This document shows positions 34,524-37,500 of a stretch of DNA of 64,000 nucleotides, one piece after another. Location: contig JAVKIP010000009.1 of assembly GCA_031459385.1 (NCBI GenBank), positions 32,001 through 96,000 on the forward strand, read 5' to 3'. The number at the start of each line of letters is the position of its first letter. The stretch's first letter is position 1. A program made the position numbers. Source of the stretch: Candidatus Fervidifonticultor secundus. Its GTDB lineage: Bacteria; Sysuimicrobiota; Sysuimicrobiia; Sysuimicrobiales; Humicultoraceae.

Positions 34524-37500
34524 CCGGATCTCCTCTTCGGTCGGCGCCGGGTTCCGCTGCAGCAGGGCGTAGGCCGTCATCATCATGCCCGGCGTGCAAA
34601 AGCCGCACTGCAGGCCGTGCCTCTCATGGAAGCCCTCCTGGATGGGGTGGAGCTCGCCATCGGCGGCCAGCCCTTCGACGGTCATGAGCTGGCGGCCGTC
34701 GGCCTGCACCGCGAAGACCGTGCACGACTTCACGGGCCGGCCGTCGAGCAACACCGTGCACGCCCCGCAGTTGGTCGTGTCGCAGCCGATGTGCGTGCCG
34801 GTCAGCCCCAGCAGTTCCCGGATGAAGTGCACCAGCAGCAGCCGCGCCTCCACCTCGGCCTCGCGCGGGGTGCCGTTGACGGTGACGCGAACCCGGTAGC
34901 CCATCTCACGCCCTCCCCGAGGCCCGCTCCAGGGCCCGTCTCAGCGCCCGTGCCAGGAGCACCCGCACCATGTCGCGCTTGTATTCGGCCGGCCCACGCA
35001 GGTCGCTGGCCGGGTCGGCTTCCGCTGCAGCCGCCTGGGCCGCGCGGGCGATGGCCGCCGCGTCGGGCACCCGGCCCAGGAGCGCCTCCTCGGCGCCCCG
35101 CGCCCGCAGCGAGGTGGGCCCGACGTTGCACAGCCCGATGCCCACCGACGCACAGGTCCCGCGGGCGTCCAGCGCCAGCTGCACGCCCACGGCAGCGACG
35201 GCGAAGTCGCCCACCTTGCGCTCCAATTTCAGGTACGCGCCGCCGCTATGTGGGCCCGGCCGCGGCACGCGGATCTCGGTGAGGAGCTCGTCGGGCTCCA
35301 GCGCCGTCGTGAACGTGTCGACGAAGAAGTCGTCGATGGGCACCACGCGCTCGCCCCGCGGGCCGGTCGCCACCACCGACGCCCGGGCCGCCAGCATCGC
35401 TGCGCCCCAGTCGCCGGCCGGGTCCGCGTGGGCCAGCGACCCGCCCACGGTGCCCATGTTCCGCACCAGCGGGTCGGCGATGACCCGGGCCGCGTCGGCC
35501 AGCAGCGGGTAGCGCTGCCGCAGCAGGTCGGAGGCCTCCATCTCGGCGTGGCGGGTCATGGCGCCGATGCGCAGCACCCCGTCCGCCTCCTGCAGACCCG
35601 CCAGACCGGGAATGCGGTTCAGGTCCACCAGGTAGCGCGGCGACGCCAGGCGCAGCTTCATCAGCGGAATCAGGCTGTGCCCGCCGGCCAGGGGCTTCGC
35701 CTCCGGCCCGTGCGTCCGCAGCGCCTCCAGCGCCTCGGCGACGCTGGTGGGCGCCAGGTAGTCGAACCGATCCGGGATCATCCCGCCCCACCCCCTATGC
35801 CTGCGTCTGCGCGGCGCGATGGCGCGCCCGCGCGAGAGATCCACCACGTTGCGGCCGAGCGGCCGTCCCAGGAGAAACAGCGCCGGACCGAGCTCGTACC
35901 GGCGTGAGGCCGGCGCGAACTCCACGAAACCGAGTGCGGTGAGGGTCTTGAGCAGGTTGTGGCAGGTACTCTTGTTGAGGCCCAGCACCCTGTGGATCTG
36001 GGCCAGGGACGCGCCGCGGCTCCCCCGGCGTTCGAGGTACCGGAGGATCGCCACGGCTCTGACCACAGCGGGTACCACCGGCTCCCCCCCGAGCAGTAGT
36101 CAGTACCGGTCCGCTGGCGACAGAAACCGTTCTTTAGAGAGAACGACAGTTCCCGGTGCTGTTGTGCCAATAATGGGCGGACCGCGGAGACCTGTCAACC
36201 CCCATGACGAGGCGGGAAAGCGTGCCTGGACCGAAAGTCGGCCGACGCAGGCCGCGGGGCGAGGCGCGCCGCGGGTGGGGATGGCGCCACGCGCCACAGG
36301 GAGGGTGGTACGGTTCCGGGGGACTACGTGCGCCGCGGGCGGGCGTCGACCTCCCGCTCGAGGGCTTTGAAGAACTCACCCGCCAGCTGCTTGGCCACGC
36401 CGCCGAACAGCCGGTGGCCCACGCTCATGAGCACGCCGGTCACCTGCGCGTCGCCCACGTAGGTCACGAGCGTCTGATCGCCCTGGGCCTGTAGCGTGAG
36501 CGCGCCGGTGGCCTTGATGGTGCCGGTGCGGCCGCTGCCTTCGACCACGAGCGTCATCTTCTCGGGCTCGACCTGATCGGTGATGCGCACCCTGCCGTCG
36601 TAGGATCCCTTGACCGGGCCTACGGCCAGCTCGATGGTGGCCGCGTACTCGTTGGGGCCGGCCGGCCGCAGCGCCTTGAGCCCCGGGGTAGTCCGGGTGA
36701 GCACGTCGGGATCGTTCAGCGCGGCCCACACCCGCTCGCGCGGCGCGGGCAGCACGTACTGCCCCTCGATCTTCATCGACCGATCCTCCTGCGCAGGCAA
36801 CCGAACCGCGTGCAGGGTCACTATAGCGACGCCGCCGTCGCGAAGTCAAACGCCAGGCGATGACGGGCATCGGCGAGCGCCCTGACGCGTCCGGCCCGCA
36901 CACGGGGTATAGTTTCCTCGGAGGCGATGCGGATGCGATGGCTGCTGCTCCTGGCGACCCTGCTGGCGCTGGCGGCCGCGCCGGCGGCGCGCGCCCAGCC
37001 CGAGGGCCCGACCGGCGATGGCCCCCGGCCCGGCAGCCAGGTCCTCGGCGACGGGCTCATCATCCCGGGCCAGCGCGTGGGCCCGGCCCGGCTCACCATG
37101 ACCATCGAGCAGATCATCGCTGCGGTAGGCGGCCGGCCCCGGCGCGACGAGTTCCCCAGAGAGGGCATCGTGCTCTACGAGTGGCGCGCCGAGGGGCTGT
37201 GGGTGTCGCTGACCATGACCACCAGGCAGATCCGCCTGATCAGCGCCTTCGGCACCAGCGACCGTTACCGGACCGACAGGGGCGTCACCCTCATGATGCG
37301 TCGGGCCAACGCCGAGCAGATCTACGGCAAAACCTACAGGGAGTACCGCTACCCCGAGGATCGGGTGACGCGCCTCCACTACGACGACCTTGGCCTGCAG
37401 TTCGGCCTGGTCTTCCAGCCGTCTAACCCGATGCTGCACGACCGCATCTTCCAGATCGGCGTGTACCGGCCGGGCGTCCTGATGCCGGTCAAACGTCCGG

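What a model noticed while it worked through the whole genome (the two positions that open the first line are those of the whole stretch)
34906..36066. CO dehydrogenase flavoprotein subunit CoxM fused to an IclR-type DNA-binding domain
In the form I aerobic CO dehydrogenase operon the medium (FAD) subunit gene coxM (g03176) is 386 codons long because a 60-residue IclR-type winged helix-turn-helix and a 35-residue linker precede the normal CoxM start, in one open frame. I read it as an enzyme subunit that doubles as the operon regulator (DNA-bound when free, sequestered when built into the enzyme), possibly made beside plain CoxM from a conserved internal start. New would be a redox enzyme subunit of the xanthine-oxidase family carrying its own transcription-factor domain.
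Evidence so far: pfam.tsv: HTH_IclR 2-50 E 5e-13, FAD_binding_5 100-269, CO_deh_flav_C 277-377; CoxL g03174 61.8% and CoxS g03175 63.3% to characterised CODH; coxG-, coxD/E/F-like genes follow. Residues 1-130 (HTH+linker+CoxM start) found as one stop-free frame of 397-427 aa at 58-77% identity in 7 other genomes of 33 of the family; 5 more genomes match only from residue 70-88 on, i.e. plain CoxM. 14 protein clusters in the 5.8-billion set have the fusion, all with Pfam HTH_IclR+FAD_binding_5+CO_deh_flav_C. AlphaFold model on 14 rows: blocks 1-60 pLDDT 84-92, linker 67-99 under 50, CoxM body mostly high. Linker end R-H-x-G-W-G-x-M96 is invariant in 14 of 14, which would fit a kept ribosome site and start cod [...]
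(Added by a program. Inside this text positions count along the whole contig: contig position 32,001 is position 1 of the stretch shown here. "Call 12" and the like, gene names such as g00115 and contig names such as C1 are that model's own, and its searches are not shown. The text may have been shortened before it was handed on; [...] marks where a part breaks off. The agent that wrote the report below was given it as the finding of a first reader that could run no searches.)

Follow-up and report, generated by a model that had tools for sequence, protein, structure and literature searches.

The report
CO dehydrogenase subunit carrying a repressor domain
The first gene of an aerobic carbon monoxide dehydrogenase operon encodes the enzyme's flavin subunit joined to a small DNA-binding domain that most likely switches the operon's own promoter, a combination not described before for this enzyme family.

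Summary
The gene lies on the minus strand at window 34906..36078, so the given coordinates are already window coordinates. It reads as one frame: IclR-type winged HTH (residues 1-65), a disordered linker (66-99), then a complete CoxM.

- **Distribution:** the fusion heads a coxM-coxS-coxL operon in 10 of 94 genomes of the phylum (CSP1-3/Sysuimicrobiota, labelled Armatimonadota at NCBI) and on 7 metagenome contigs.
- **The HTH is translated and kept:** its dN/dS is 0.17-0.37, against 0.14-0.28 for CoxM. It has its own conserved ribosome site and start codon.
- **The old coxM start survives:** the "RHRGWGGM" motif is the ancestral coxM ribosome site plus ATG, conserved as DNA. Relatives that lost the HTH keep it too.
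- **Candidate operator:** a palindrome, GTTCT-N6-AGAAC, lies 25 nt downstream of the -10 box. It is present in 17 of 17 intact fusion loci and only once in the 3.3-Mb genome.
- **Support from relatives:** free-standing IclR relatives beside other molybdenum hydroxylase operons carry two such sites, 20 bp apart, in 9 of 9 loci.

My best reading is a long, operator-binding isoform that autoregulates, made beside plain CoxM. No binding, RNA or protein data exist. I rate it a new variant of a known kind (PutA-like trigger enzymes).

The parts
36170..36198 (-). Promoter-like site: TTGACA (36198..36193), 17-nt spacer, CATTAT (36175..36170)
   Evidence: It is the only sigma-70-type match in 35600-36500, against 0.0 expected from shuffles. 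TTGACA plus an ATTAT-type -10 box aligns in 7 of 8 family fusion loci (L008 reads TTCGCA) and is visible in L036 and L038.
36129..36144 (.). Candidate operator: the 16-bp palindrome GTTCTCTCTAAAGAAC (GTTCT-N6-AGAAC). It lies 25 nt downstream of the -10 hexamer and 50 nt upstream of the start codon.
   Evidence: It is the only exact GTTCT-N6-AGAAC in the 3,301,802-base genome. It is present in 10 of 10 fusion genomes and 7 of 7 intact metagenome fusion loci. Related free-standing IclR genes carry two GTTC-N8-GAAC sites in 9 of 9 loci.
36079..36090 (-). Ribosome site GGGGGGGAG (36090..36082) and a 3-nt spacer before the long-form start codon
   Evidence: A G-run lies 3-6 nt before the start in 8 of 8 family loci.
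34906..36078 (-). Whole open frame of HTH-linker-CoxM: 390 codons plus TGA. The start GTG at 36078 is likelier than the GTG at 36066.
   Evidence: The start position reads GTG, TTG or ATG in all relatives.
35884..36078 (-). IclR-type winged helix-turn-helix, residues 1-65; recognition helix around N35-L46
   Evidence: Pfam HTH_IclR, E 6.1e-13. It aligns to residues 8-83 of the solved IclR-family chain 5tjj_A, E 2.3e-12. pLDDT is 78-91. dN/dS is 0.17-0.37. N35 K36 S37 T38 C39 K44 T45 L46 are invariant in 15 of 15 clusters.
35782..35883 (-). Linker, residues 66-99. It starts with the remnant of the IclR inter-domain helix, and its last ~16 codons are the former coxM 5' leader.
   Evidence: pLDDT is under 50 for residues 70-99. 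dN/dS of codons 73-91 is 0.25-1.17 among distant pairs. The only indels in the wider set are in frame.
35779..35796 (-). Internal ribosome site AGGGGGTGGGG (35796..35786), spacer CGGG, then ATG (35781..35779), the ancestral coxM start (M100)
   Evidence: It is conserved as DNA in fusion and non-fusion relatives. R95 is AGG in 10 of 10 loci (4.7% of Arg codons genome-wide) and G96 is GGG in 10 of 10 (26%). Never-fused orthologues have a ribosome site at the same place.
34906..35781 (-). CoxM body (291 residues plus stop): the FAD-binding medium subunit of the CO dehydrogenase
   Evidence: Pfam FAD_binding_5 and CO_deh_flav_C. Foldseek finds 1ffu_C and 1n60_C with TM 0.91-0.92 (normalised to the target) and 45-49% identity.
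34404..34904 (-). coxS, the [2Fe-2S] small subunit; its ATG starts 1 nt after the coxM stop
   Evidence: Pfam Fer2_2 and Fer2; junction sequence.
32050..34401 (-). coxL, the Mo-Cu large subunit, with the AYRCSFR loop
   Evidence: Pfam Ald_Xan_dh_C, MoCoBD_1 and MoCoBD_2. Motif and start.
36324..36821 (-). coxG-like gene upstream; it ends 245 nt before the fusion gene
   Evidence: Pfam COXG, 6.6e-26.

Best explanation
The first gene of the coxMSL operon gives two products from one mRNA.

1. Translation from the upstream start (36078) makes a long isoform. Here the DNA-binding module of an IclR-type regulator (winged HTH plus the start of the inter-domain helix) is tethered by a ~35-residue flexible linker to a complete CoxM.
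2. Translation from the retained ancestral ribosome site and ATG (35781) makes plain CoxM for the enzyme.

The HTH binds, most likely as a dimer, to the single palindrome GTTCT-N6-AGAAC, which sits about +19 to +34 relative to the predicted transcription start. In this way it down-regulates its own operon (negative autoregulation).

The fusion arose once. A co-directional IclR gene upstream of coxM lost its effector/tetramerisation domain and joined in frame to the coxM leader. It has since been kept in some lineages and lost in others.

Shown by sequence analysis: the fusion, selection on the HTH, both start signals, the conserved site, and the related two-site operators.

Inferred: DNA binding, the sign of regulation, and use of both starts.
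For: 1. ONE FRAME. The frame carries no indel over 390 codons in 8 of 8 family loci. The fusion is found in 10 of 94 genomes of the phylum and on 7 metagenome contigs.

2. SELECTION ON THE HTH. Nei-Gojobori dN/dS over the 27 of 28 pairs that give a value is 0.17-0.37 for the HTH, against 0.14-0.28 for CoxM (all 28 pairs). The L003/L004 pair has no synonymous change in the HTH. Recognition-helix residues are invariant in 15 of 15 clusters.

3. UPSTREAM START. GTG, TTG or ATG stands at the same codon, preceded by a G-run.

4. INTERNAL START. GCAYAGGGGGTGGGG-N4-ATG is kept as DNA in fusion and decayed loci. In L010 the leftover upstream ORF is in another frame and stops before it. The rare codons AGG and GGG are fixed in 10 of 10 loci. 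Never-fused orthologues have a ribosome site at that spot.

5. OPERATOR. GTTCT-N6-AGAAC occurs in 17 of 17 intact fusion loci, once in the whole genome, 25 nt after the only promoter-like site.

6. RELATED OPERATORS. The closest free-standing relatives of the HTH (53-56% identity) are full-length IclR genes directly upstream of 2Fe-2S/Mo subunit genes. 9 of 9 carry two GTTC-N8-GAAC sites exactly 20 bp apart. That is 12 exact sites in 22,539 nt, against 79 in 3,301,802 nt of the window's genome. The window genome's own paralogue has two as well.

7. CO-DECAY. Where the HTH decayed, the site is lost or broken in L011, L012, L017 and L079-81.

8. N-TERMINAL EXTENSION. N-terminal extension of this FAD domain is normal in the fold family, for example XdhA 2w3r_A among the Foldseek hits. 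That this applies here is an inference.
Against: - No binding, transcript or protein data exist, and no RNA run holding the locus was listed.
- The HTH has been lost at least three times while coxM stayed (G021, G012, G011), so it is dispensable.
- Two decayed loci (L009, L010) still keep an intact palindrome. Another protein, for example the free-standing IclR paralogue that recognises the same type of site, could therefore be its binder.
- The HTH lacks the IclR C-terminal domain, and its ability to dimerise alone was not tested because the complex prediction could not be run.
- One 99-residue HTH-only ORF exists (P0019). If it is real, the covalent link to CoxM is not needed.
- The loci are related, so the counts are not independent events.
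Confidence: 0.55

Rival explanations
1. Only the long form is made. The internal ribosome site is a fossil or merely slows ribosomes, so every CO dehydrogenase molecule carries an HTH on each of its two M subunits. The assembled (LMS)2 enzyme is then itself the DNA-binding unit.
For: The frame is strictly kept. The enzyme's dimer-of-trimers form, recalled from the solved CODH structures listed, would supply two HTHs for a palindrome after loss of the IclR oligomerisation domain. The fused loci have a single operator, against two in the free-standing relatives.
Against: The synonymous sites of AGG-GGG are fixed in 10 of 10 loci, and the same DNA is kept where it is not translated in that frame. 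Both point to an active ribosome site. Lineages that lost the HTH make do with the short form.
Confidence: 0.15
2. The palindrome is the site of another regulator, for example the free-standing IclR paralogue at G000:C34. The fused HTH has a different role: a competitor, a decoy, or a protein-protein or assembly function.
For: The free-standing paralogue in the same genome has sites of the same GTTC-N8-GAAC type. Two loci without a working HTH still keep the palindrome (L009, L010).
Against: The strict GTTCT-N6-AGAAC form co-occurs with the intact HTH in 17 of 17 loci. It is lost or interrupted in most decayed loci. The recognition helix is invariant.
Confidence: 0.12
3. The HTH is an evolutionary relic with no present function. 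The real product is plain CoxM, and the long frame is open by chance or through gene-caller preference.
For: Repeated loss in relatives. A 291-residue call of the same gene exists (P0017). High-GC genomes keep long open frames easily.
Against: The HTH's dN/dS of 0.17-0.37 equals that of the enzyme body. There is no indel in 99 codons across genera. The gene has its own conserved start and ribosome site, and the operator is conserved. Real relics in G021, G012 and G011 look quite different, with deletions and frame loss.
Confidence: 0.06

Closest known systems
Trifunctional PutA (proline utilisation A)
   Same: A flavoenzyme with an N-terminal DNA-binding domain that represses its own regulon (abstract of PMC5293562, seen in the listing). 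A short DNA-binding domain plus a flexible link is added to an otherwise complete enzyme.
   Different: PutA uses a ribbon-helix-helix domain; here the domain is an IclR-type winged HTH. PutA is a single-chain enzyme; here the carrier is one subunit of a three-subunit Mo-Cu hydroxylase. Here a second, plain isoform is probably made from an internal start. Whether DNA binding depends on redox state, as recalled for PutA, is unknown.
Free-standing IclR regulators beside molybdenum hydroxylase operons in the same phylum (L041, L085-L092; own genome C34)
   Same: 53-56% identity (45% for the own-genome paralogue) to the HTH, including the VPAV start and the KST recognition-helix motif. Each is co-directional and directly upstream of the structural genes. 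They have GTTC-N8-GAAC operators.
   Different: They keep the ~175-residue IclR_C domain, are separate proteins, and have two operator sites 20 bp apart instead of one. They precede an S-L type operon, not coxMSL.
CoxM/CutM of Afipia (Oligotropha) carboxidovorans and Hydrogenophaga pseudoflava
   Same: Same fold (TM 0.91-0.92, 45-49% identity), same domains, and the same coxMSL order with a form I CoxL motif.
   Different: Those proteins are 286-287 residues long and have no N-terminal extension.
CoxC, the MHYT-domain regulator of the cox genes in A. carboxidovorans OM5
   Same: A dedicated regulator of aerobic cox genes encoded in the cox cluster (PMC11347149: abstract and two introduction passages).
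   Different: CoxC is a separate membrane-linked sensor-regulator with a different DNA-binding domain. It is not part of an enzyme subunit, and IclR is not mentioned in that paper (0 occurrences).
BirA and NadR (recalled, not checked here)
   Same: A winged-HTH or HTH domain joined N-terminally to an enzyme, which represses the pathway's own genes.
   Different: Different enzymes. In those, co-repressor formation by the enzyme activity controls binding; nothing comparable has been shown here.

Membership tests
Form I aerobic Mo-Cu CO dehydrogenase, medium FAD subunit (CoxM/CutM) | FAD_binding_5 plus CO_deh_flav_C domains | tested here: met
   E 3.1e-54 and 3.1e-23, both over the Pfam cut-offs
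Form I aerobic Mo-Cu CO dehydrogenase, medium FAD subunit (CoxM/CutM) | Fold of solved CODH M subunits | tested here: met
   1ffu_C, 1n60_C and 1zxi: TM (normalised to the target) 0.91-0.92, rmsd 2.1-2.2, 45-49% identity
Form I aerobic Mo-Cu CO dehydrogenase, medium FAD subunit (CoxM/CutM) | coxM-coxS-coxL gene order, and CoxL with the AYXCSFR loop (the signature is recalled from the literature) | tested here: met
   Order and junctions; AYRCSFR found
Form I aerobic Mo-Cu CO dehydrogenase, medium FAD subunit (CoxM/CutM) | CO-oxidising activity of the enzyme | not testable with these tools
   Needs an enzyme assay
IclR family transcription regulators | N-terminal HTH_IclR winged helix-turn-helix | tested here: met
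   48.8 bits against a cut-off of 22; aligns to 5tjj_A residues 8-83
IclR family transcription regulators | C-terminal IclR_C effector-binding and oligomerisation domain | tested here: not met
   No PF01614 match. CoxM follows after a 35-residue linker. It therefore carries an IclR DNA-binding module but is not a canonical family member.
IclR family transcription regulators | Binds a palindromic operator at or near its own promoter | tested here: inconclusive
   A conserved palindrome is in the right place, and related regulators have the same motif. No binding assay has been done.
Trigger enzymes with a built-in DNA-binding domain (PutA type) | DNA-binding domain and enzyme (sub)unit in one polypeptide | tested here: met
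   One frame, under selection
Trigger enzymes with a built-in DNA-binding domain (PutA type) | Regulates the genes of its own pathway | tested here: inconclusive
   The candidate operator lies in its own promoter region only. No functional data exist.
Trigger enzymes with a built-in DNA-binding domain (PutA type) | DNA binding switched by the enzyme's catalytic, redox or assembly state | not testable with these tools
   Needs biochemistry
Genes giving long and short isoforms from two in-frame starts | A conserved ribosome site and start codon at both positions | tested here: met
   Upstream start; internal start
Genes giving long and short isoforms from two in-frame starts | Both proteins detected | not testable with these tools
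   Needs proteomics or start-site profiling

The most novel reading that the evidence does not exclude
The CoxM moiety has taken over the role of the lost IclR effector domain. DNA binding by the HTH would then depend on the state of the enzyme subunit: either the FAD redox state set by CO turnover (PutA-like), or assembly into the (LMS)2 enzyme, whose two M subunits would supply the two HTHs needed for the single palindrome. The CO dehydrogenase would be its own sensor and repressor, coupling CO oxidation flux directly to cox transcription without any separate CO sensor.
Probability: 0.18. Interest if true: 0.85.

Novelty: new variant of a known kind. Interest (0 to 1): 0.7.

Why it matters
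Enzymes that double as transcription factors ('trigger enzymes') are few, and each has taught something about how metabolism talks to gene expression. None is known in the xanthine oxidase / CO dehydrogenase family. The only characterised dedicated regulator of aerobic cox genes that I found in print is the unrelated CoxC (PMC11347149).

This case comes with three things that make it directly testable:
- a defined 16-bp candidate operator;
- a natural series of intact, decayed and never-fused versions;
- full-length IclR cousins with a double operator.

The questions it opens are concrete. Can an IclR DNA-binding module work without its effector domain? Does a redox subunit act as the sensor? 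The bacteria involved are uncultured hot-spring and groundwater organisms, for which trace-gas oxidation is thought to matter. The locus also gives a clean example of how a regulator-enzyme fusion is born (a deletion joining a regulator to the leader of its target gene) and how it is lost again.

Tried and rejected
- **Coordinates.** Window 2906-4066 (the given coordinates minus 32000) holds no coxM.
- **Complex prediction.** It was never queued because the queue was full, so HTH self-association remains untested.
- **RNA evidence.** No RNA holder was listed for window 34800-36400. I did not use read laying, because the one listed run holds next to none of the stretch's sampled words.
- **16S rRNA.** I looked for a 3' end to read the anti-Shine-Dalgarno sequence and found none in the assembly.
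- **Representative library.** The 130-residue query gave 1469 hits at E<=0.001 and 6 at E<=1e-10. None of the best 150 is a full-length fusion, probably because fusions cluster with plain CoxM at 50% identity. This search is therefore no measure of spread.
- **P0019.** I searched for the DNA of this 99-residue HTH-only ORF in metagenome contigs and found none. Whether it is a true separate gene, a frameshift or a sequencing error is open.
- **Earlier notes of this scan.** Nothing by sequence, words or place.
- **Literature.** 'CoxM'+'IclR' gave 4 unrelated papers. 'carbon monoxide dehydrogenase'+'medium subunit'+'helix-turn-helix'+'fusion' gave 0 papers. The phylum paper PMC11604079 has 0 occurrences of CoxM in its main text; its supplements were not read. 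Fusions of CoxM to other HTH types were not searched for.
- **Rejected: assembly or gene-calling artefact.** The same fusion is present in 10 genomes and on 7 metagenome contigs.
- **Rejected: an RNA hairpin role for the palindrome.** The stem is 5-6 bp, AT-rich and invariant, so it shows no covariation. This reading is unlikely but not excluded.
- **Rejected: an internal promoter for the short form.** There is no second promoter-like site in 35600-36500.
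Full report
**Where the gene is.**
The window is G000:C59:32001-96000. Subtracting 32000 from the given coordinates leads to a stretch without coxM. 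The given numbers are already window coordinates. The gene is on the minus strand, in a stop-free frame from 36078 (GTG) to the TGA at 34906-34908, 390 codons long. In every relative the codon at 36078 is GTG, TTG or ATG and follows a run of G, so I take 36078 as the start.

**What the frame encodes.**
- Pfam gives HTH_IclR at residues 4-54 (E 6.1e-13), FAD_binding_5 at 104-273 and CO_deh_flav_C at 281-381. There is no IclR_C match.
- The first 81 residues align to residues 8-83 of a solved 260-residue IclR-family protein (5tjj_A, E 2.3e-12). The DNA-binding domain and the start of the inter-domain helix are therefore kept, and about 175 residues of effector domain are missing.
- An AlphaFold2 model on 15 rows has mean pLDDT 81.3. 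The HTH scores 78-91, residues 70-99 fall under 50, and the CoxM body is confident.
- The body superposes on the M subunits of the solved CO dehydrogenases (1ffu_C, 1n60_C, 1zxi) with TM 0.91-0.92 and 45-49% identity.

**Operon context.**
The gene is the first of coxM-coxS-coxL. coxS starts one base after the coxM stop. coxL carries AYRCSFR, which I recall as the form I signature. XdhC/CoxI+YHS, COXG and AAA genes lie downstream, and another COXG gene lies upstream. Of the five FAD_binding_5 genes in this genome, only this one carries an HTH.

**Distribution.**
- Residues 1-130 are found in one frame in 8 of 34 genomes of the family, the window's own included.
- Across all held genomes of the phylum the figure is 10 of 94: family f1 8 of 34, f2 1 of 1, f3 1 of 22.
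- The 5.8-billion protein set has 15 clusters with the three-domain architecture among 17 hits.
- Seven further intact copies lie on metagenome contigs.
- Record titles name Candidatus Geohabitans and Ca. Fervidifonticultor, plus 'Armatimonadota/Armatimonadetes bacterium' MAGs from hot springs and groundwater. PMC11604079 (passages read) places these genera in phylum CSP1-3, 'Sysuimicrobiota'. It does not mention CoxM in its main text.

**Is the HTH a working protein domain?**
- The eight family genes align without a single indel over 390 codons.
- Pairwise Nei-Gojobori dN/dS is 0.17-0.37 for codons 1-72, for the 27 of 28 pairs that give a value. For the CoxM body it is 0.14-0.28. Linker codons 73-91 drift (0.25-1.17 among distant pairs).
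- This analysis used the 8 family loci only. The two fusion genomes outside the family and the metagenome copies were left out.
- Third-position variation is ordinary across the HTH while the residues stay put.
- The recognition helix (N35 K36 S37 T38 C39 ... K44 T45 L46) is invariant in 15 of 15 clusters.
- This is the pattern of a translated, functional domain, not of a relic.

**The 'invariant linker end' is a ribosome site.**
- The DNA GCAYAGGGGGTGGGG-N4-ATG is the same in fusion genomes and in relatives without an HTH.
- In L010 the leftover upstream ORF is in another frame and stops just before it, yet the DNA is unchanged.
- In the fusion genes R95 is AGG in 10 of 10 loci and G96 is GGG in 10 of 10. 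These codons make up 4.7% of Arg codons and 26% of Gly codons in long ORFs of this genome, while neighbouring Arg codons vary freely.
- Orthologues that never show any trace of the HTH have a ribosome site at the same place.
- The last ~16 linker codons are therefore the old coxM leader, and M100 is the old coxM start, still under nucleotide-level constraint. This argues that plain CoxM is still made from it.
- One metagenome copy (L075) has AGGGCGTGGGG.

**A candidate operator.**
- The 245-nt gap upstream holds the only sigma-70-like site of the region: TTGACA-17-CATTAT, with 0.0 expected from shuffles.
- 25 nt after the -10 box lies the palindrome GTTCTCTCTAAAGAAC, 50 nt before the start codon. 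It is 37.5% G+C in a 73% G+C window.
- The promoter and this palindrome are the conserved islands of an otherwise unalignable spacer.
- GTTCT-N6-AGAAC occurs in 10 of 10 fusion genomes and 7 of 7 intact metagenome copies. It occurs exactly once in the 3,301,802-base genome.

**Independent support from relatives.**
- The nearest free-standing relatives of the HTH (53-56% identity over residues 2-74/81; 9 of 23 genomes of family f4) are full-length IclR genes of 254-270 residues. They share the VPAV N-terminus and the KST recognition-helix motif.
- Each sits directly upstream of, and co-directional with, the 2Fe-2S small subunit gene of another molybdenum hydroxylase operon.
- All 9 carry two GTTC-N8-GAAC sites (at most 1 mismatch), exactly 20 bp apart, 51-140 nt before the gene. 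That is 12 exact sites in 22,539 nt, against 79 in the 3.3 Mb of the window's genome, or about 0.5 expected.
- The window genome's own paralogue (45% identity, G000:C34), again followed at once by a small subunit gene, has two such sites abutting its start codon.
- This HTH clade therefore goes with GTTC-N8-GAAC operators. Full-length proteins have two sites, as expected (from recollection) for IclR tetramers. The fused form, which lost the oligomerisation domain, has one.

**History.**
- Among 18 genomes with a CoxM at least 70% identical, 10 are fused, 3 hold clear remnants and 5 show none.
- G021 keeps the palindrome and the 3' half of the HTH. It has lost the 5' part and has a 61-nt deletion in the linker.
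- G012 keeps the start and the first ~15 codons, then a deletion and a stop.
- G011 keeps only nine HTH codons, joined to the ribosome site.
- On a CoxM tree of 25 rows (L042-L066; the five loci under 60% identity were left out), all fused and remnant genes fall in one 16-row clade (support 88/84). The G021 remnant is sister to the G020 fusion (100/99).
- This fits one origin and several losses.
- The palindrome is gone or interrupted in L011, L012, L017 and L079-81, but still intact in L009 and L010.
- The origin is best explained by a deletion that removed the effector domain of a co-directional upstream IclR gene and joined it in frame to the coxM leader. The linker still begins like the IclR inter-domain region.
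- G024 and G016, flagged unpublished, enter only as non-fusion rows in tallies. G024 also appears as one outgroup row of the tree. No claim about the fusion rests on them.

**Mechanism.**
I commit to the following. One mRNA from the TTGACA promoter gives a long HTH-CoxM isoform and a short plain CoxM. The HTH binds the single palindrome at about +19 to +34, probably as a dimer, and damps transcription of its own operon. My rough odds:
- the HTH is a translated, selected domain: about 0.9;
- it binds this palindrome: about 0.75;
- both starts are used: about 0.7;
- the effect is negative: about 0.6.

Whether the CoxM part modulates binding (by redox state or assembly) is open; that is the novel case. 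A 99-residue HTH-only ORF in the protein library (P0019) hints that the link may not be essential, but its DNA could not be found.

**What argues against this reading.**
- There are no experimental data of any kind, and no RNA holder was listed.
- The HTH is dispensable in several lineages.
- Two decayed loci keep the site, and a full-length paralogue with the same kind of site exists in the same genome. Another binder is therefore possible.
- Dimerisation of the truncated module was not tested, because the complex prediction was never queued.

**Comparison and novelty.**
- It works like the trigger enzymes with a built-in DNA-binding domain, above all trifunctional PutA, a flavoenzyme with an N-terminal DNA-binding domain that represses its own genes (abstract of PMC5293562).
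- It is not a canonical IclR family member, because the C-terminal domain is absent.
- It is a bona fide CoxM by domains, fold and operon.
- The characterised regulator of aerobic cox genes that I found is the unrelated MHYT protein CoxC (PMC11347149: abstract and two passages).
- Searches for CoxM+IclR (4 unrelated papers) and for CODH medium subunit+helix-turn-helix+fusion (0 papers) found no description of this fusion. Database names call it only 'FAD binding domain-containing protein' or 'carbon-monoxide dehydrogenase medium subunit'.
- I rate it a new variant of a known kind.

Noticed in passing
They are already window coordinates, and the gene is on the minus strand.
   Followed up: yes
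G000:C34:3077-3111 and L022:1450-2846: The same genome has a free-standing 297-residue IclR paralogue (45% identical to the HTH). Two GTTC-N8-GAAC sites, 19 bp apart, abut its ATG. It is followed 3 nt after its stop by a 2Fe-2S small subunit gene of another molybdenum hydroxylase operon. Cross-talk with the cox palindrome is possible.
   Followed up: partly
window ~46100-49371 (+), 49783-51033 (+): There is a second molybdenum hydroxylase gene set in the window. The large-subunit domains sit at residues 1249-1937 of the long 42417..48446 frame. A plain FAD subunit follows (48448..49371, no HTH), then an AllH-like gene.
   Followed up: no
P0019 (99 aa), P0037 (45 aa), P0105 (236 aa): The protein libraries hold an HTH-plus-linker-only ORF that leaves the frame inside the ribosome-site zone, and two decayed forms. 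P0019 may be a natural unfused version with overlapping stop and start, or a sequencing error. Its DNA was not found.
   Followed up: partly
L046 (G050) against L058/L059 (G049, G047), same genus g19: G050 carries a fused coxM that groups with family f1 genes (support 82/66). Two congeners carry plain coxM from the sister clade. This could be lateral transfer of the fused operon or a binning problem.
   Followed up: no
G000:C52:90-190: At a contig start there is an array of ACGTTC/AACGTT-like repeats (…gtttcaacgttgaaacgttcccacgttcaaacgttccaacGTTCTAACGTTTGAAC…). I saw it while listing GTTC-N8-GAAC sites.
   Followed up: no
window 30924-31970 (-): The XdhC/CoxI-like maturation gene downstream of coxL ends in a YHS (metal-binding) domain. 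This fits copper handling for the Mo-Cu site.
   Followed up: no
L079-L081 (metagenome contigs): Three contigs share an identical decayed version: a 45-codon leftover ORF, and the palindrome split by an insertion (GTTCTTTCTACAG-gacaataacgc-AGAAC), while the coxM ribosome site and ATG are intact.
   Followed up: yes
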